IMG/VR virus record: IMGVR_UViG_2917403263_000004
Location: 1 to 37,272 of that record
Reading direction: 5' to 3' (one strand)
Origin: a virus
Lineage: Duplodnaviria > Heunggongvirae > Uroviricota > Caudoviricetes
Length of the DNA stretch: 37,272 bases
Shown here: piece by piece, positions 1 to 37,272 of the stretch
How positions within the stretch are numbered: the stretch's first letter is position 1
Layout: every line of letters begins with the position of its first letter
Notes under the pieces: generated by a model
Seen by the model: only the letters and a program-made list of their open reading frames with translations
Told to the model about the DNA's origin: nothing
The model's database searches: none
Translations under genes and position numbers: made by a program

Positions 1-144
1 TTACTGTCTACATTGTAAGAACGCCGCAAACTCCGCTCCCCAGAAGCTCATCCGTATCTCGCAGAGCGAACCCTGCAACATCCAGATGATGAGGATTGCC
101 GTCACGCATAGTGTGGTGATGGCGATTAGCGATTTTTGCGACAT
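1..144 (-). CDS. Hok/Gef-family type I toxin (small membrane peptide, 47 aa)
   Basis: Manual translation of minus strand 144..1: MSQKSLIAITTLCVTAILIIWMLQGSLCEIRMSFWGAEFAAFLQCRQ. N-terminal hydrophobic helix followed by SLCEIR...EFAAF, resembling the Hok/HokA/Gef signature. AAGGAG lies 8 nt upstream of the ATG. The stop codon is the first 3 nt of the window. Below the ORF-track length cutoff. Confidence 0.6.
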   Translation of the reverse strand: MSQKSLIAITTLCVTAILIIWMLQGSLCEIRMSFWGAEFAAFLQCRQ

Positions 145-247
145 AGCACTTGCTCCTTTTTCGGAGAGGCGCTAACCTACGACTTGCGAAGGTTGTATGG
201 CTAGGGCCTCGGGTTAACGTTAAAGTTGACTCGGGGCCTTTCCACAT
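8..247 (-). CDS. mok-like overlapping reading frame (modulator of hok translation)
   Basis: 79-aa ORF in the track that overlaps the hok-like ORF almost completely in another frame and starts about 100 nt upstream, as mok does in hok/sok loci. No sequence-level confirmation. Confidence 0.35.
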   Translation of the reverse strand: MWKGPESTLTLTRGPSHTTFASRRLAPLRKRSKCYVAKIANRHHHTMRDGNPHHLDVAGFALRDTDELLGSGVCGVLTM

Positions 248-408
248 CCGGCCTTCAGGTATTCCCTCCAGCCATCAGCCGAAAGGCACCCGCGCGAATT
301 CTAGCCTGGTTTTTTCCCTTGTTTCAATCCGTTGAGACTTATCAGCCTTCTGATGTAAAATTCCCGACCGCAGACATTATTCAGTCACGCATTTGATACA
401 TGCTTCCG

Positions 409-432
409 CCGGCGTTCGCGCCGGTTTTTTTT
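409..432 (+). terminator. Rho-independent terminator (possible Sok-like antisense RNA terminator or hok mRNA 5' structure)
   Basis: CCGGCG-TTCG-CGCCGG hairpin (6-bp GC stem, UUCG loop) followed by T8 on the plus strand. No plus-strand CDS lies upstream. It sits about 160 nt upstream of the mok-like start. Confidence 0.5.
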
Positions 433-909
433 CGTCCTGTTGCTGCGTAGATCGTCATGTGCGATCGAGGCGCGGTATTGATCCTTTTTTCAGTTTAATT
501 CTGGCTCTTGATTTTGTGCAGGCCGCGCCGCGTCTGGCTTCTTTGTTTGATGGTTGTTTGATGTGATCCCTTCGCGATCGTGTCCTGTCTCACGTAAAGT
601 ATGAAAACTCTTTTAATATCAGCCTGTTTTCTTTCTCCTGCCATTTATGGGATCGTAAAAACCTCTCTGAAAACTGCAAAAAATTTCAAAGCGTGAAATT
701 TCAGATCCTCGCTTTTCCCTCAGTCGCTGCGCGGGCTGGCGGTCATTTTTGCACGGCAGAAAACTGAAAAAGTGTTTCGACACGAAACCCGCGGGTTGGA
801 GGGGGTAGCGCGGTTTACGTCACCTCACGCTTTACGTCACACCGTTTACGCGGTATGTGCATACAGCGCCAGAATGGTATGCAGAACGCATTAATCAGGT
901 GGTGGATAT

Positions 910-935
910 GAAAACGCACGGTCGAAGCCGTGCGT
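910..935 (-). terminator. Putative terminator at the end of the late tail operon
   Basis: Hairpin ACGCACGG-tcgaag-CCGTGCGT followed on the minus strand by TTTTCAT, about 40 nt downstream of the last late gene (stop at 975). Confidence 0.45.
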
Positions 936-974
936 TGTGTGGTGGGGCGTTTATGTGGCTTTTATGTCGGGTTA

Positions 975-2672
975 TCAGGCGATAAGGTCGCCGTATTTTT
1001 CACGCAGACTCGTGGCCTGTTGGGCATCTGCGGCAAGTTCGCCGCTGTTCATCGGTGCGCCAGTGTTGCTGTGGGTGTGGTTTGCTGTATGTGTGGCCAG
1101 CAATTGAATCAGGTCCAGAATATCAGTCAGCAACGTCAGCAGGTTAAGCCCGGACTTTTCCCGCGAGCCGCTGCGACCAATAAACACTGTCGGGGCGGTA
1201 AACTCCAGACCGCCGTCCGCCCTGCATGTTCTGCGGCCTCCCACGTTTTCAGTCAGGTCGTGCTCAATCGTTGACGTTGCGCCTTTAAGTTTAGTCAGCA
1301 AATCCTGCGCCACCATCTGGATGTGTTCGCCGGCTGCGATCGCGTAATTGCCGGTAGTAAGGTGTTCTGTCTGGCCTGTCATCAGCTTGCTGGTACCAAG
1401 AACACTGGTTATGTCGTTTGCCTGGACTGTTGTTGTTCTGGTTGTTGTTGTGCGTTCTTCCTGGTCGCTGTTAATGGTTCGCCTGGCAGAATGCTCCCTG
1501 ATTTGCTGGTCGGTTTCCCTGTGCCAGCTTCCGTCAGTCGTGACACGCTGAAACACTTCTGCGCGCTGTTGCTGCAACTGTTCGCCGGGCTTTACATCAG
1601 GCAGGTTATGTCCGGCAGGTAAGATTTGCCTGATGACAGGTTTATCCGGGCGGCCTTCAATACTGGATATTTCCACGATGGTGCCTGCCGGTGGGTAGGC
1701 AAAACATCCCGCCTCGCTACCAGCCATCGGGACAGGGAGCGGTACTGCCGGGTAAACAGGCGTATCGCTTTTGTCGTTGCCGTTCTCATCAAGCAGCTGC
1801 ACGTCCACGGCGTAGCGTGGGCGGAAACTGTCGGCTACATCGCCCAGGGTGGCGGATTCCGTTGGTGCGACGACCCGCGCCAGTCTGGTGTGTAGTGTAC
1901 CGCTGGCCAGTTCCGGAAACTGCGTTTCCATCTGTCTGCGCAATGGTGATTTGGAAACAGGGCTACCCGTGGCGGTGAGGCGCTCCCATGTCAGTGTCAT
2001 TTTCTCGTTGTTGAGGGCTACACGGGTAATACGCCCGGCCGGAAGATTCACACCCGGCCGCACGGTTTCCATGAACATGATGTCGATGCTGTTTCCGCCG
2101 CTTTGCCCGAGTGTGTACTGTTGCGGAATATCGGGCATGGTAATGCTGGCAAACCGTGAATCAGCTGCGTTTCCCACAAATACAGAACCGTCCGGCATGG
2201 GGTGCCAGACGTAATCGCTGATACTGAATGAGCGCCCCAGCTGGCTGAGTAACTGCGTCCCGCTGCCGCTGTGGGTGATGTAGGGAGTTGGTGTGCTGAC
2301 ATAATCCGCATCTGGCGTGATAAAAACGATACCGCTTTGTCGCCCCAGATTATCGAGCACATCCCGCAACGTCGGGTGTTGCATGGAGCAGGGGAAATCA
2401 AAATCCAGCACAGCAGCTGCTTCACGGATAAAAAGGCGACGTGAGCCATTTTCGGCCGGTTGATCGCGTTCTATGTAGCCAGAGAAATAGCGCCAGGCCT
2501 CACCATTACGGCCGAGATCGATTTGCACCATTGCGCCGGCAAGGCTTTTTTCTGGTGACAGATTGTTAACAGAAACGAAGCCGCGACCGGCAGCATTCAG
2601 GGTGAGAGCAAGGCTGATATCGGCAATTTCCACCTGTTCGCCATTGATCATGCAGCGTTGTATCAATTTCAT
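975..2672 (-). CDS. Putative baseplate hub protein (gpD / Mu gp44-like N-terminus with long C-terminal extension)
   Basis: 565 aa, last gene of the tail operon. ATGA start/stop overlap with the upstream gene. The N-terminal pattern (VQIDLGRNGEAWRYFSGYIERDQ ... QHPTLRDVLDNLGRQSGIVF) resembles the gpD/late-control-D family, recalled from memory. Weak assignment. Confidence 0.45.
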   Translation of the reverse strand: MKLIQRCMINGEQVEIADISLALTLNAAGRGFVSVNNLSPEKSLAGAMVQIDLGRNGEAWRYFSGYIERDQPAENGSRRLFIREAAAVLDFDFPCSMQHPTLRDVLDNLGRQSGIVFITPDADYVSTPTPYITHSGSGTQLLSQLGRSFSISDYVWHPMPDGSVFVGNAADSRFASITMPDIPQQYTLGQSGGNSIDIMFMETVRPGVNLPAGRITRVALNNEKMTLTWERLTATGSPVSKSPLRRQMETQFPELASGTLHTRLARVVAPTESATLGDVADSFRPRYAVDVQLLDENGNDKSDTPVYPAVPLPVPMAGSEAGCFAYPPAGTIVEISSIEGRPDKPVIRQILPAGHNLPDVKPGEQLQQQRAEVFQRVTTDGSWHRETDQQIREHSARRTINSDQEERTTTTRTTTVQANDITSVLGTSKLMTGQTEHLTTGNYAIAAGEHIQMVAQDLLTKLKGATSTIEHDLTENVGGRRTCRADGGLEFTAPTVFIGRSGSREKSGLNLLTLLTDILDLIQLLATHTANHTHSNTGAPMNSGELAADAQQATSLREKYGDLIA

Positions 2673-4548: not shown

Positions 4549-6555
4549 TCAGCCGATCCCATCATGTCGCCAGACAATGCCCGGTACCGTTCCCGGCAAA
4601 CCTGCTCCTGAATCACGAAAATAAGCAGATACGTTGCCGTCGTATACGCCGGCCACGTTACTGGTGAAATGGCCCTTAAATTCAACCGCGCTAAGACGCG
4701 AGCCAGGGTAATAATAACCCCGCATTATCCGGCGATTCTGGTCTGAAGAGTCACTTCCTCTGTATGCGGCCAGCACCAGACTGCCTGTGCCGTACCAGGC
4801 GTCTGTGGCTCCCGGAGCAATGCCTGACAGAAGATCGATAACGTTCTGAGTGGTAAATTTCAGTGATTCCCAGCCGATGAGATAGCCATTTCCACTTGTC
4901 CAGTAGCGGTTGTGATAAATATTGCCGTTAATGCCATAGAAAGTAATGACCTTTACTGTATGACGCGGGTTCGGCACTCCATACTCTGACTCAACCCAGC
5001 GAATACGAACCATTCCTTTGAACAGCACGTCCGGTATAATTTTATTGCTGCCGTCAACAAGATATTCTCCCGGTTCTGCCTTCCTTACCCACGCAAGAAA
5101 ATCATTTTCTGAGTTAAACCTGATGACCTCGTCAGGGAGAAAGATATGACCAAAGCCGAACGCGCCAGGTATAGCCAGGCGGTCTGCCGTGCGGTCATGA
5201 ATGTCACCCTGCGGCTCCAGTGTGGCAGCTTTTCCAAGCTCAAGGATCGTGTGCATGTCTGCCAGTGTTTCCTGCATCAGCAGAGTGCGCGCCATTTCTG
5301 ACAGTGTGGAAAGCGAAGCATTCCCTTCCGTATCAAAGCACAATAATTTGTCTGCCCGCGCTTTCAAATTGCTGATGGCGGTTAACACGTCACTGAGAGG
5401 TTGCTTGCCTGCCAGCGCGTTGGTGACTGTTGTTGCAAAGTTCGGGTCATTGCCCAGCGCCGCCGCCAGTTCGTTCAGCGTGTCCAGGGCTTCGGGAGAT
5501 GAATCCACCAGTGCAGCGAGCAGTTTGCGGACAAACGCCGCATTTGCGATTTCTGTCCCCGTGGCATCATCAGGCGGTGTCGGGGTTTTCGGAGCGCCGG
5601 TAAAGACCGGACTGTACAGGGTGGCTCTGGCGTTGATTAACGTTAAGAAGTACGCCTCATTTGTCTTCAGGTTATCCCAGCCAGTCAGATAACCACCGCT
5701 GAGAGGCCAGTAACGGTTGTAATAAACATCTCCGTTAACGGTGTATAAAATAATGGCTTTTGCCATATGTTGCGGTTCTGGTGGATTGCGGTTCGCCTCC
5801 AGAAACCGGATATTAATTACACCACAGTAGCCACCGGGTAACACACCATTGGCCCCCTGTACAGAATACTCTCCGGGCGTTGCCTGCTTGACCCATGCTA
5901 GGAGGTCTTTTTCTGTATCAAACCGGATAAGCTCGCCTGGCAGAAACATGTGACCAAAACCAAATGCGCCCGGTATCGCCAGCCGGCCTTCCGTGCGGTC
6001 GTAAATATCACTCTGCGGCTCCATTGTGGCGGCATTTTTCAGTCCCAGATTATCACGGGATTCCTGTTGCGCCTCTTCACCTTCTGCCGCAATTTCTGAC
6101 AGGTGGTTAGCCGTTTTCAGCATTGTTTTCAGTTCCGGATAAATATCCATCTGCCAGCTCTGTGGGGGAACCGTGATTTGTGCAGCCTGAGCCATACCAC
6201 TGTAAGTGATTGCAAAATTACGAAGAAGAGTTTCCCCCACATGTTTGTGGTGAACAGGAGTTTTTATTACACCGCATAGCGTGCCACTTGCCTGGTGAAC
6301 AAGACAAATCCAGTCATAACTGAATTCGGCGTCTTCAGTGACTGCACCGCTACATACAATGCTGTTTGGGGTCAGTTGTCCGTAGGTGAGTTTGTTTACG
6401 GTATAAGTAATTTTTTCCGGTGGAATAATATTATCTTCCGGGCTGGGGTCGCGATTCATTAGTGCAAATACGATGGCATCCGGCCGGGCAGGTAAATTGC
6501 CGGCAATGCATTTTGCAATCCATTTTTCAAATGCTTTCGTTAATAATGCGCTCAT
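4549..6555 (-). CDS. Tail fibre protein 2 (receptor-binding fibre with internal tandem domain repeat)
   Basis: 668 aa. N-terminal about 150 aa homologous to the N-terminus of fibre 1 (PARPD..VFA, EF.Y.WI.L, G.LC motifs). Contains the classic fibre motif DTLNELAAALGNDPNFATTVTNALAGKQP. Two diverged copies of a domain of about 130 aa (aa 165-297 and 433-566). Confidence 0.7.
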   Translation of the reverse strand: MSALLTKAFEKWIAKCIAGNLPARPDAIVFALMNRDPSPEDNIIPPEKITYTVNKLTYGQLTPNSIVCSGAVTEDAEFSYDWICLVHQASGTLCGVIKTPVHHKHVGETLLRNFAITYSGMAQAAQITVPPQSWQMDIYPELKTMLKTANHLSEIAAEGEEAQQESRDNLGLKNAATMEPQSDIYDRTEGRLAIPGAFGFGHMFLPGELIRFDTEKDLLAWVKQATPGEYSVQGANGVLPGGYCGVINIRFLEANRNPPEPQHMAKAIILYTVNGDVYYNRYWPLSGGYLTGWDNLKTNEAYFLTLINARATLYSPVFTGAPKTPTPPDDATGTEIANAAFVRKLLAALVDSSPEALDTLNELAAALGNDPNFATTVTNALAGKQPLSDVLTAISNLKARADKLLCFDTEGNASLSTLSEMARTLLMQETLADMHTILELGKAATLEPQGDIHDRTADRLAIPGAFGFGHIFLPDEVIRFNSENDFLAWVRKAEPGEYLVDGSNKIIPDVLFKGMVRIRWVESEYGVPNPRHTVKVITFYGINGNIYHNRYWTSGNGYLIGWESLKFTTQNVIDLLSGIAPGATDAWYGTGSLVLAAYRGSDSSDQNRRIMRGYYYPGSRLSAVEFKGHFTSNVAGVYDGNVSAYFRDSGAGLPGTVPGIVWRHDGIG

Positions 6556-30011: not shown

Positions 30012-30235
30012 CTGTAGTTGCAAGTTTTGAAAACTCACCATCCAGAGGTTGCAATTCTGGGTGGTGAGGCGTACGGGGTTGCAACCACCGGCAACTACAG
30101 AAACCGGCCCGACCGAAGTCGGCCCCATACGCCCCACCATAATTCGTGTGCGAAAAAGACGTGGCGATACGGTACGCACAAAAAAACCGCTGGCGCGGTT
30201 GTGCGCTGTAGTTGTCAGCGGGGGTTGCAATCCCG
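30012..30235. repeat. Cluster of short repeats (CTGTAGTTG and GGTTGCAA motifs) in a 320-bp non-coding region
   Basis: CTGTAGTTG at 30012 and 30206, with the inverse GCAACTACAG at 30091..30100. GGTTGCAA at 30047, 30077 (perfect palindrome GGTTGCAACC) and 30222. Confidence 0.5.
30181..30200 (-). terminator. Putative terminator after the upstream early genes
   Basis: On the minus strand, ACCGCGCCAGCGGT hairpin followed by T7, nested inside an outer CGCACA/TGTGCG inverted repeat. Confidence 0.4.
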
Positions 30236-30321
30236 ACACCCGTTTTATGAGGTGCAGCGGAAATGTAACCTGACTGATTGCGGCATGGCAAGCGGTTTTT
30301 TTGTGTGTGCATGATGATTAC

Positions 30322-34791: not shown

Positions 34792-34860
34792 CTTTACACA
34801 TTGAGCGGATTACATCTCGCAAGGAGTATTTAGTTAATTTATCCGTTGGATGGGCTAATC

Positions 34861-35854
34861 ATGTCGATTAAGCAACTCAAAGACGGACGTTATCAGGTCG
34901 ATGTCAGACCGCAGGGGGCGGAAGGAAAGCGGATTCGAAAAATCTTCGCCCTGAAATCAAAGGCTCAGGAGTTTGAGAAATATGTGTTGCAGAACTTCCA
35001 TGACAAGCCATGGCAGGCTAAGCCAGCTGATCAGCGGCGATTATCAGAGCTGCTTGATGCGTGGTGGATGCTTGACGGGCGTAATCAGGCTTACGGGGAT
35101 AGCTACAGGGTCAGGCTAGAGAAGGTTATTCGTGAAATGGGAGATCCTCGTGCCAGTCATATGACGCGAAAATTTATGCTCGAGTATCGGTCAGAGAAAT
35201 TACAGGCCGGATTAATGCCGTCCAGCATTAATCGTGATTTATGCGTTCTGTCTACCATGTTCACGGTGCTGATTGAAGCTGAGGTCTTTCACAATGCGAA
35301 CCCTGTACGCGGTATACGCAAACTGAAAGTTCAGAACACGGAAATGGCCTTTCTTTCTGATGATGAGATTGAACGGCTTCTTGAGCGACTGGAGGGGGGA
35401 TGCGCGTCGTGTTGCCATTCTGTGTCTTTCTACTGGTGCCCGGTGGAGTGAAGCATCGGAACTACGTGGAGAGCATATCGTTGGCAACCGGGTGACGTTT
35501 TTTAACACCAAAAACGGAAAATCCCGCTCAGTTCCTGTGGCGGATTCGGTTGTGCCTCTGATTAAAACCCGTCGGACGGGGTTGTTGTATCAGGTTAATT
35601 ATCTGGAGTTCCGGGAGATTCTTCAGGAGGTGAAACCGGATTTGCCGAAGGGGCAGGCTACGCATGTCATGCGTCATACATTTGCCACACACTTTATGAT
35701 GAATGGTGGAAATATTGTTACGTTACAACGAATCCTTGGGCACGCCACGATTCAGCAGACAATGACGTACGCTCATTTTTCGCCGGACTTCTTACAGGAC
35801 GCGATCAACTTTAATCCGTTGGCTGAAAGTGTCCATAAACTGTCCATCGATTAG
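34861..35854 (+). pseudogene. int: P2-type tyrosine integrase, frameshifted
   Basis: N-terminus MSIKQLKDGRYQVDV and C-terminal RHTFATHFMMNGGNIVTLQRILGHATIQQTMTYAHF parallel P2 Int. The reading frame shifts +1 at the G6 run 35394..35399 (track ORFs 34846..35451 and 35360..35854); a G5 run would restore ...LERLEG-DARRVAILCLSTGARW. Confidence 0.75.
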
Positions 35855-35940
35855 TTATAATTTGTGTTGATTTGTTCCCCCTGTTTGGGCTTATTCATTG
35901 AAAAATAAGTAAATCATCAGGGGGAGCAAGAAACCTTAAA

Positions 35941-35959
35941 GCGCCTGCGGGCGCTTTTT
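35941..35959. terminator. Hairpin between convergent int and serS (probable bidirectional terminator)
   Basis: GCGCC-tgcg-GGCGC followed by TTTTT on the plus strand and preceded by AAA, about 20 nt downstream of the serS stop. Confidence 0.5.
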
Positions 35960-35979
35960 AGATTCAGAATAGTTGGATA

Positions 35980-37272
<1,293 letters not shown>

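What the first reader, a model, noticed from the sequence alone, without database searches (positions are those of the whole stretch)
35855..35979. Nested inverted repeats between int and serS as a candidate attachment-site core
Outer arms TCCCCCTG / CAGGGGGA (35876..35883 and 35918..35925) enclose inner arms CTTATT / AATAAG around an AT-rich centre, directly downstream of int. A partial match TTCCCTTGTTT occurs at 314..324 near the other end of the element. Integration next to the 3' end of serS is not a P2 site I recognise.
Basis: inference. Interest (0 to 1): 0.5.

Follow-up and report, generated by a model that had tools for sequence, protein, structure and literature searches.

The report
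Backwards P2-like prophage attachment junction
The interval is the integrase-side junction of a known type of P2-like prophage whose crossover site is the serS terminator hairpin beside the flagged repeats, not the repeats themselves, and the only unusual feature is that this prophage sits backwards in that near-palindromic site.

Summary
The repeats are real and fold strongly (z = -5.2), but they are not the attachment core. They lie in the phage arm between int and the core. 349 complete E. coli genomes carry the same int plus hairpin, always next to dmsA. Comparing lysogens with empty sites puts the core at 35938-35957. It is the 20-bp serS terminator hairpin AAAGCGCC-TGCG-GGCGCTTT.

The 314-324 similarity is chance. 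It lies inside the phage's hok locus. The second core copy is about 258 nt beyond the window's left edge, next to dmsA.

The site is not new. It is that of prophage PhiECO5 of E. coli UTI89 (PMC3448106).

What is unusual is orientation. Here int abuts serS and hok abuts dmsA, the reverse of every E. coli lysogen examined. The chromosome flanks are collinear with K-12. Both junction loops carry phage polarity, while empty sites in related Escherichia strains keep the E. coli polarity. Read backwards, the core still matches at 18 of 20 positions.

I favour a rare wrong-way Int-mediated integration. In-situ inversion is not excluded. The hairpin's own role is unresolved. It is conserved, with one compensatory pair, in a related integrase type.

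The parts
34862..35854 (+). P2-type tyrosine integrase gene. In this assembly it is broken by one extra G in the run 35394-35399 (6 G against 5 in relatives).
   Evidence: Two overlapping ORFs, 34846-35451 and 35360-35854. The alignment with L027, A36 and STEC316 shows a single inserted G. The intact 330-aa version has Int_N plus Phage_integrase domains. It is 96-97.5% identical to int in 349 E. coli genomes.
35826..35847 (+). Two direct 11-nt repeats, AAAGTGTCCAT and AAACTGTCCAT, overlapping the end of int. They are candidate Int arm-type binding sites of the P arm.
   Evidence: Direct repeat with 11-nt spacing. The reverse complement, ATGGACA, fits the published P2-type arm consensus tgTGGaCa (PMC3448106). 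The same motif pair recurs on the other arm, ATGGACGTTATATGGACAC. It also sits at the int stop in other P2-like phages.
35872..35929 (+). The nested inverted repeat of the finding. Outer 12-nt arms are 35872-35883 and 35918-35929; inner arms are 35890-35895 and 35904-35909. It is phage-borne P-arm DNA, not the core.
   Evidence: z = -5.2. It is linked to int in all lysogens and absent from empty sites. It is retained in the related type-2 integrase with one compensatory pair (CG to UA) and two one-sided G.U-preserving changes.
35938..35957 (.). Attachment core, which is the serS rho-independent terminator hairpin AAAGCGCC (35938-35945), TGCG loop (35946-35949), GGCGCTTT (35950-35957). The loop has phage polarity, inverted relative to empty sites.
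   Evidence: It is the 20-bp identity among E. coli attL, attR, empty attB and both junctions of this lineage. It is flagged as terminator-like on the serS strand.
35958..35979 (-). Chromosomal arm: the serS 3' untranslated region, joined to the phage P arm in the orientation opposite to E. coli lysogens.
   Evidence: E. coli homology starts at 35935-35938 and runs through serS. The sequence after the core, ttagattcagaa, is the reverse complement of the serS-side arm of attB.
35980..37272 (-). serS (seryl-tRNA synthetase), the chromosomal flank.
   Evidence: It is 94.7% identical to E. coli and 98.65% to Escherichia sp. E1V33.
1..144 (-). Phage-borne hok/Gef toxin gene at the other end of the prophage. 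The second core copy lies about 258-277 nt beyond window position 1, next to dmsA.
   Evidence: Hok/Gef annotation and PF01848. The same contig continues hok, two terminators, arm repeats, TTAAAGCGCC-CGCA-GGCGCTTT, dmsA.
313..324 (+). It is a chance similarity inside the hok upstream region and not part of any att site.
   Evidence: 8 matches against 3.3 expected at 2 mismatches. The region is conserved as part of hok loci elsewhere.

Best explanation
Positions 35826-35979 are the integrase-proximal junction of a PhiECO5-type P2-family prophage.

Shown:
- The junction consists of a phage P arm, the 20-bp core and the serS 3' UTR.
- The P arm holds two Int arm-type repeats at the end of int, followed by the 58-nt nested hairpin.
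- The core is the serS terminator hairpin (35938-35957).
- The nested repeat is a conserved accessory part of the P arm, not the crossover site.
- The prophage lies in the reverse orientation relative to every E. coli lysogen of this integrase type. The order here is serS-[int...hok]-dmsA; in E. coli it is serS-[hok...int]-dmsA. The chromosome flanks are collinear.
- Both junction loops have phage polarity.

Inferred mechanism:
- Int binds the arm repeats on both arms and the two stem halves of the terminator as core-type sites.
- Strands are exchanged in an overlap around the 4-nt loop. A sister integrase type shares only CCTGCGGGCG with attB, which confines the exchange to those 10 bp.
- The core read backwards still matches at 18 of 20 positions. 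Site polarity therefore rests on the two outer loop bases.
- I infer that a rare antiparallel synapse let Int integrate the phage the wrong way round. Both loops then ended up phage-type, either through mismatch correction or by passage through a loop-flipped attB.
- The hairpin itself most likely acts as a structured spacer in the P arm, as an AT-rich bendable centre flanked by a GC clamp, or as a stem-loop at the 3' end of int mRNA. This last part is the least certain.
For: Core and arms:
- E. coli attR reads ...CAGGGGGAGCAAGAAACgTTAAAGCGCCTGCGGGCGCTTTttttgtctccc, then dmsA.
- attL reads serS-ctaaAAAGCGCCTGCGGGCGCTTTAAgaagagg....
- Empty attB reads ctaaAAAGCGCCTGCGGGCGCTTTtttt.
- 349 genomes carry int plus hairpin. 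In every locus inspected it sits next to dmsA.
- The published PhiECO5 coordinates fall on these junctions.
- The arm repeats match the published P2-type consensus and occur on both arms.

Reverse orientation:
- The window is 100% identical to GCA_004745145.1 contig PDID01000003.1. That contig carries ftsK-lolA-rarA-serS-[prophage]-dmsABC.
- The dmsA-side junction is hok...cttcTTAAAGCGCC-CGCA-GGCGCTTTttttatctccc.
- The same junctions appear in two independent read-set assemblies.
- No complete E. coli genome among 5426 has an int-serS junction; the best coverage was 85%.
- Empty sites of the same lineage (L023, L036) have loop TGCG.

Exchange region and tolerance of heterology:
- Type-2 attL and attR share only CCTGCGGGCG with attB.
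- A type-1 prophage occupies the lysV-xapR terminator, with junction GCGCC|TAAAGGCGC.

General principle: overlap sequence sets the orientation of integration in tyrosine recombinases (PMC2817482).
Against: - A simple reciprocal Int exchange across a mismatched overlap predicts one phage-type and one bacterial-type loop per chromosome. Two phage-type loops are seen, so an extra step has to be assumed.
- No loop-flipped empty attB was found among about 5075 empty E. coli sites or in JGI metagenomes. The single flipped-loop hit, strain B-766, is a palindromic serS duplication and probably an assembly artefact.
- The three heterologous attR junctions seen (L039, L045, L056-type) carry the bacterial-type loop. 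The P-side junction here carries the phage-type loop.
- Only one near-clonal lineage shows the reversal, so it is a single event.
- No free phage attP sequence was found, so attP is deduced rather than observed.
- The IHF-like match in the hairpin centre has 2 mismatches.
- Covariation in the hairpin rests on two haplotype groups only.
Confidence: 0.85

Rival explanations
1. The nested inverted repeat 35872-35929 is the att core, and TTCCCTTGTTT at 314-324 is its duplicated partner at the other prophage end.
For: The repeat is real, strongly structured and lies directly after int. Dyad symmetry is typical of att cores.
Against: The repeat is absent from empty attB sites and stays with int at the dmsA side in E. 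coli. The duplicated sequence is the serS terminator. The 314-324 match is at chance level and lies inside the prophage, about 570 nt from the true junction.
Confidence: 0.02
2. The prophage first integrated in the ordinary orientation and was later inverted in place. Recombination between the quasi-palindromic cores of attL and attR caused the inversion. It could have been Int-mediated antiparallel synapsis, short-homology recombination or template switching, with exchange in the outer stem halves.
For: A single reciprocal exchange in the chromosome-proximal stem halves inverts everything between them. That directly yields two loops of phage polarity, as observed, with no extra step. attL and inverted attR share 24 bp with 2 mismatches.
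Against: Int normally exchanges strands on both sides of the overlap, which again predicts mixed loops. An excisive complex with arms in antiparallel geometry is not known to be productive (my own knowledge of lambda-type systems). 8-10 bp of perfect inverted homology is very short for RecA. None of the 349 E. coli lysogens is inverted.
Confidence: 0.3
3. The immediate ancestor of this strain carried an attB with a flipped terminator loop (CGCA). That would be a micro-inversion of the hairpin loop or two substitutions. The phage then integrated by fully homologous, ordinary Int recombination, and the flipped loop dictated the opposite orientation.
For: This gives exactly the observed junctions with no mismatch and no repair. 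Loop sequence does vary between Escherichia species: TGCG, TGTG and TTCG. The two empty sites available from this clade are 1.3-1.9% diverged in serS from the window strain, so its own ancestral attB is unknown.
Against: No flipped-loop empty site was found in about 5075 E. coli, two clade relatives or JGI metagenomes. The one apparent case is a palindromic duplication.
Confidence: 0.2
4. The nested repeat acts at the RNA level. It would be a stem-loop at the 3' end of the int transcript that protects, processes or pauses the mRNA, and its position in the P arm would be incidental.
For: It folds more stably on the int-sense strand (-28.5 against -21.1 kcal/mol). The two one-sided changes keep pairing through G.U on that strand, and one pair is compensatory. 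In type 2 the inner stem re-pairs with a different part of the conserved right half.
Against: No U-tract follows it, and it was not called terminator-like. There is no Rfam family at that position. The most conserved block, CATTGAAAAATAAGTAAATCATCA, is sequence-invariant, which suits a protein-binding DNA site as well. There are only two haplotype groups.
Confidence: 0.3
5. The reversed arrangement is an assembly artefact produced at a hairpin.
For: Hairpin-centred artefacts exist: E. coli B-766 shows a palindromic serS-serS join at this very terminator. The GenBank assembly of the window has single-base indels relative to read-set assemblies.
Against: Both junctions lie on one 154-kb contig. 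Both are reproduced in contigs of 12-16 kb from two separate read sets. The 20-bp core is shorter than the assembly k-mers, so junction-spanning k-mers must exist in the reads. A mis-join cannot also flip both loops.
Confidence: 0.03

Closest known systems
Prophage PhiECO5 of E. coli UTI89 (Nilsson and Haggard-Ljungquist 2011, PMC3448106), a P2-like prophage between serS and dmsA
   Same: The integrase, C repressor and Cox region is the same (int 96% identical). So are the P arm with the hairpin, the 20-bp core in the serS terminator, and the hok gene at the far end.
   Different: The orientation in the chromosome is opposite and both loops are flipped relative to the chromosome. The host is a cryptic Escherichia lineage near Escherichia sp. 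E1V33. The late region is HP1-like rather than in the P2 order. int is frameshifted in this assembly.
Bacteriophage P2 attP organisation: heterobivalent Int, arm-type direct repeats on both sides of a core, IHF and Cox as accessory factors
   Same: P2-type Int domains are present. Direct repeats fitting tgTGGaCa lie on both arms, one pair overlapping the int stop as in a P2-like phage record. A Cox-family gene is present.
   Different: The core is a perfect terminator palindrome rather than P2's 27-bp core (the latter from my own knowledge). The 58-nt nested hairpin in the P arm has no counterpart in the P2-like record examined. Binding of IHF or Cox was not tested.
W-phi-type P2-like prophages at the cpxP terminator
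   Same: They also use a rho-independent terminator hairpin as core, with arm repeats right after int.
   Different: Their core identity extends asymmetrically beyond the hairpin. None of about 793 E. coli lysogens carries the reversed junction.
Overlap-directed orientation in tyrosine recombinases (IntDOT experiments, PMC2817482; the lambda Int, Cre and Flp spacer rules from my own knowledge)
   Same: Orientation of integration is set by the asymmetry of the overlap. Symmetric overlaps give both orientations, and inverting the overlap inverts the insertion. Here polarity rests on two loop bases.
   Different: This is a natural lysogen rather than an engineered site. The exchange sites are inferred from junction comparisons, not mapped.

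Membership tests
P2-type prophage attachment site (attP-derived junction) | Adjacent P2-type tyrosine integrase with an N-terminal arm-binding region and a catalytic domain | tested here: met
   Int_N (E = 3.6e-28) and Phage_integrase (E = 7.3e-19) in the intact copy L027. The window copy has a +1 frameshift.
P2-type prophage attachment site (attP-derived junction) | A core sequence identical in attL and attR and present once in the empty attB | tested here: met
   AAAGCGCC-NNNN-GGCGCTTT is at both junctions and in empty sites. In this lysogen the loop is inverted relative to attB.
P2-type prophage attachment site (attP-derived junction) | At least two direct arm-type repeats on each side of the core matching tgTGGaCa | tested here: met
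   P arm: ATGGACAG and ATGGACAC (reverse complement of 35829-35847). P' arm: ATGGACG and ATGGACAC. The consensus is from PMC3448106.
P2-type prophage attachment site (attP-derived junction) | An IHF site between the arm repeats and the core | tested here: inconclusive
   The best match in the hairpin centre, TTTCAATGAATAA, has 2 mismatches to WATCAANNNNTTR. The P' arm has a 1-mismatch match. Related phages have perfect matches in their P arms; I read these by eye from the sequences printed, and no scan was run on them.
P2-type prophage attachment site (attP-derived junction) | Cox (excisionase) binding sites in attP, and demonstrated Int-dependent recombination | not testable with these tools
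   A Cox-family gene is present. The only cox-box-like strings are the TTAAAGCGC half-sites of the core. No biochemical data exist.
PhiECO5 integration module (serS-dmsA site) | The same int and P arm, and insertion at the serS terminator between serS and dmsA | tested here: met
   The published ends 911187 and 948481 fall at the terminator and 93 nt after int.
PhiECO5 integration module (serS-dmsA site) | Fixed orientation, with the hok/ogr end at serS and int at dmsA | tested here: not met
   The window has int at serS, and its contig has hok at dmsA. No int-serS junction exists in any of the 5426 complete E. coli genomes, 349 of which carry this int. Every locus inspected has int at dmsA.
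Rho-independent terminator (for the nested hairpin itself) | A GC-rich stem followed by a U-tract | tested here: not met
   The hairpin is followed by GCAAGAAACC. Only the core at 35938-35957 was called terminator-like.

The most novel reading that the evidence does not exclude
The polarity of this attachment site rests on just the two outer bases of a 4-nt terminator loop. The phage can therefore occasionally lysogenise in either orientation. In doing so it rewrites the host terminator loop to its own polarity at both junctions, so a cured cell would inherit a flipped attB that then favours reverse insertion. That would be a natural example of orientation switching at a quasi-palindromic att site for a heterobivalent integrase.
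Probability: 0.4. Interest if true: 0.45.

Novelty: new member of a known kind. Interest (0 to 1): 0.33.

Why it matters
For annotation, this fixes the real prophage boundary. The core is the serS terminator, and the other end lies outside the window. It also shows that a striking hairpin next to int need not be the crossover site.

For recombination biology, it offers a natural lysogen in which a directional integrase system has ended up backwards at a near-palindromic site. Sister cases bracket the exchange region and show tolerance to loop heterology: type-2 attP shares only 10 bp with attB, and there is a secondary site at the lysV-xapR terminator. This makes one simple question directly testable: how much overlap asymmetry is needed to enforce prophage orientation?

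The practical consequences for the host look small. The terminator is rebuilt at both junctions in either orientation.

Tried and rejected
- I looked for a free-phage attP. The three close matches in the phage collection are prophage cut-outs that still carry dmsA. Exact-pattern scans of IMG/VR for the deduced attP and for the reversed junction found nothing.
- I looked for other reversed lysogens or loop-flipped empty sites. There were none in 5426 E. coli genomes or in two JGI metagenome scans. The only flipped-loop hit, B-766, is a palindromic serS-rarA-lolA duplication and most likely an assembly artefact.
- I tested whether reversal is general for terminator-core P2-like phages. No W-phi-type lysogen at cpxP, of about 793, has the reversed junction.
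- I tried to fetch the attL of the secondary-site lysogen CP122609.1, but the record is not in the annotated collection. No other genome has that junction.
- Rfam gave no family at the hairpin.
- Literature searches for a prophage between serS and dmsA, or for prophage inversion at att sites, returned nothing specific beyond PMC3448106.
- I rejected the idea that hok is chromosomal. It is absent from empty sites and lies inside attL in E. coli.
- I rejected a larger chromosomal inversion. The flanks are collinear with K-12 and both breakpoints fall inside the 20-bp core.

Full report
**1. Observation**

- The repeat finder extends the outer arms to 12 nt: 35872-35883 TTGTTCCCCCTG and 35918-35929 CAGGGGGAGCAA, 92% complementary.
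- It confirms the inner pair CTTATT/AATAAG.
- It also reports a direct repeat, AAAGTGTCCAT/AAACTGTCCAT, at 35826-35847 overlapping the end of int, and an 8-bp stem with a 4-nt loop at 35938-35957.
- The 70-nt hairpin folds at -28.5 kcal/mol, z = -5.2 against shuffles.
- The similarity at 314-324 is not significant. There are 8 matches at up to 2 mismatches against 3.3 expected.

**2. Where the junction really is**

The serS flank is about 94.7% identical to E. coli, and that homology starts at window 35935-35938.

The int gene with everything up to 35937, hairpin included, is present at 96-97.5% identity in 349 complete E. coli genomes. In every locus inspected it lies next to dmsA, not serS.

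| Site | Sequence |
|---|---|
| E. coli attR | ...CATCAGGGGGAGCAAGAAACgTTAAAGCGCCTGCGGGCGCTTTttttgtctccc, then dmsA |
| E. coli attL (A36, C325) | serS-ctgaatctaaAAAGCGCCTGCGGGCGCTTTAAgaagagg..., then AAGTGTCCATATAACGTCCAT, two terminators, hok |
| Empty sites (K-12 and others) | ctaaAAAGCGCCTGCGGGCGCTTTtttt |

The common core is therefore the 20-bp serS terminator hairpin, window 35938-35957. The nested repeat is phage P-arm DNA.

hok is a phage-borne gene lying just inside the other junction.

The published coordinates of prophage PhiECO5 in UTI89 are 911187-948481 (PMC3448106). They fall on exactly these junctions. The site is already on record.

**3. The arms**

The 11-nt repeats at the end of int read ATGGACA on the other strand. 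This fits the published P2-type arm consensus tgTGGaCa.
- A similar pair lies 47-65 bp beyond the core on the hok side.
- Other P2-like integrases from IMG/VR, and a P2-like phage record, show the same layout. Arm repeats sit at or just after the int stop, followed by 60-100 nt of spacer and a terminator-like core.

The intact integrase has Int_N and Phage_integrase domains. The element has a P2-type capsid, terminase and GPA, a Cox-family gene, and an HP1-like tail module.

**4. The unexpected part: orientation**

In the window the core is followed by ttagattcag. This is the serS-side arm in reverse complement, not the dmsA-side arm.

The window is 100% identical to contig PDID01000003.1 of GCA_004745145.1.
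- That contig runs ftsK-lolA-rarA-serS-[int ... hok]-dmsABC.
- Its other junction reads hok, two terminators, ATGGACGTTATATGGACAC, cttcTTAAAGCGCC-CGCA-GGCGCTTTttttatctccc, dmsA.

The flanks are collinear with K-12. Only the prophage is reversed, and the breakpoints fall inside the core.

Two assemblies made from separate read sets give the same junctions. They differ from the window only by single-base indels.

None of 5426 complete E. coli genomes has an int-serS junction.

Empty sites in the same cryptic Escherichia clade carry the loop TGCG when read from serS towards dmsA, as in E. coli. These are L023 and Escherichia sp. E1V33, with serS 98.1% and 98.65% identical to the window. In the reversed lysogen both junctions carry CGCA in that direction. 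The loop therefore keeps phage polarity at both ends.

**5. Where exchange happens**

A sister integrase, type 2, has 88% amino-acid identity and the hairpin variant CTCCCCTTG...CAAGGGGAG. It occupies the same serS-dmsA site in at least 14 E. coli genomes.
- Its attR is gtgTTAAATCTCC-TGCG-GGCGCTTTTTTT.
- Its attL is AAAAAGCGCC-TGCG-GGCGGTTTTTgcatgag.

Its attP shares only CCTGCGGGCG with attB. Both strand exchanges must fall within those 10 bp, which include the loop.

A type-1 prophage at the lysV-xapR terminator has the junction TTAAAGCGCC|TAAAGGCGCTTTTTT, against a native AAAAAGCGCC-CTAAA-GGCGCTTTTTT. The enzyme can therefore use a site with the same stems and an unrelated loop.

Read backwards, the serS core differs from attP at only two positions, the outer loop bases. 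That is much less heterology.

In tyrosine recombinases the overlap sets the orientation of insertion, and symmetric overlaps give both orientations (PMC2817482).

**6. How the reversal arose (inference)**

I favour a rare Int-mediated integration from an antiparallel synapse. The weakness is that a standard exchange across a mismatched overlap leaves one loop of each type per daughter chromosome, whereas both are phage-type here.

Three routes fit the data:
- Mismatch correction of both heteroduplexes, roughly a one-in-four outcome if the direction of repair is random.
- A previously flipped attB in this strain's ancestor. None was seen among about 5075 empty E. coli sites or in metagenomes. 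The one apparent hit is a palindromic duplication in strain B-766.
- In-situ inversion of an ordinary lysogen, with exchange in the outer stem halves. This gives two flipped loops directly.

The data do not separate these routes. An assembly artefact is very unlikely (section 4).

The reversal is rare. It was found in one near-clonal lineage here, and in none of the 5426 complete E. coli genomes, 349 of which carry this integrase. As a control, W-phi-type prophages at the cpxP terminator have an asymmetric core, and none of about 793 lysogens shows a reversed junction.

**7. What the nested hairpin does**

It is conserved as a structure in both integrase types.
- In the 12-pair outer helix, one pair changes on both sides (CG to UA).
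- Two pairs change on one side while keeping pairing.
- One pair is broken in one sequence.
- In type 2 the inner stem re-forms by pairing a different left-hand sequence with the neighbouring part of the invariant right half.

It has no U-tract and was not called a terminator. No Rfam family matches it.

Its AT-rich centre matches the IHF consensus only weakly, with 2 mismatches. In related phages I read perfect IHF consensus strings by eye in the equivalent P-arm spacer; no scan was run on them.

My best reading is a structured spacer of the P arm. It may serve DNA bending in the intasome, act as a stem-loop at the 3' end of int mRNA, or both. This step is inferred from two haplotype groups only.

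**8. Verdict**

The core, the partner copy and the novelty of the site are wrong.
- The feature is a member of a known kind, the PhiECO5 module of P2-like phages.
- The one noteworthy oddity is insertion in reverse orientation at a near-palindromic terminator core.

Noticed in passing
window 35394-35399: The G-run has 6 G where a near-identical read-set assembly (L027) and E. coli relatives have 5. This splits int into two ORFs. It is either a real inactivating frameshift or a homopolymer error in the GenBank assembly.
   Followed up: partly
window ~4588 and ~433: There is an extra C at about 4588 relative to L009. It lies near the 3' end of the tail-fibre ORF 4549-6555, which is 668 aa here against 682 aa in L009; the link between the indel and the shorter ORF is my inference. 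A T-run near 433 is one base shorter than in L010.
   Followed up: partly
window 1-320: A Hok/Gef toxin gene (1-144, minus strand) with its upstream regulatory region is carried by the phage just inside the attachment site. The same position is occupied by hok in E. coli lysogens of this integrase type. The window cuts off the hok 3' region.
   Followed up: partly
window 30057-30144 and 30180-30255, minus strand: Rfam matches above gathering score to C4 antisense RNA (82 bits) and isrK (58 bits), side by side inside the prophage.
   Followed up: no
L048 (STEC2018-607), L056, L132-L134: A related 'type-2' integrase has a non-palindromic deduced attP, TTAAATCTCC-TGCG-GGCGGTTTTT, sharing only 10 bp with the serS attB. 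It is found in at least 14 E. coli genomes. STEC2018-607 has a second copy inside the yfaS/yfaT pseudogene region. Strains G1/2, G6/7 and G8 lack one base in the attL stem.
   Followed up: partly
L045 (CP122609.1) and L047 (K-12 lysV-xapR): A type-1 prophage is inserted at a secondary site, the terminator after tRNA-Lys next to xapR. That terminator has the same stems but a different 5-nt loop, and the junction keeps the bacterial loop minus one C.
   Followed up: partly
L137 (E. coli B-766, NZ_CP118014.1): serS-rarA-lolA is present as a head-to-head inverted duplication whose axis is the serS terminator hairpin, with further inverted copies beyond. Together with a frameshifted ftsK, this looks like a fold-back assembly artefact.
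   Followed up: no
L007, L016, L018, L020: The same tail-fibre and hok end of the phage, including the identical or near-identical 565-aa protein, occurs at other chromosomal sites: next to a com/methyltransferase-flk region, and next to greA. This implies exchange of integration modules between otherwise similar phages.
   Followed up: no
L039 and L032: The terminator loop differs between Escherichia lineages. It is TGTG in the E. ruysiae empty site and TTCG at the attR of a lysogen with a divergent dmsA flank.
   Followed up: no
window 145-975: About 830 nt between hok and the 565-aa gene contain no ORF of at least 80 aa in the list. By eye there is a GC-rich hairpin with a T-run near 404-430. 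The stretch is 95% conserved in E. coli A36.
   Followed up: no
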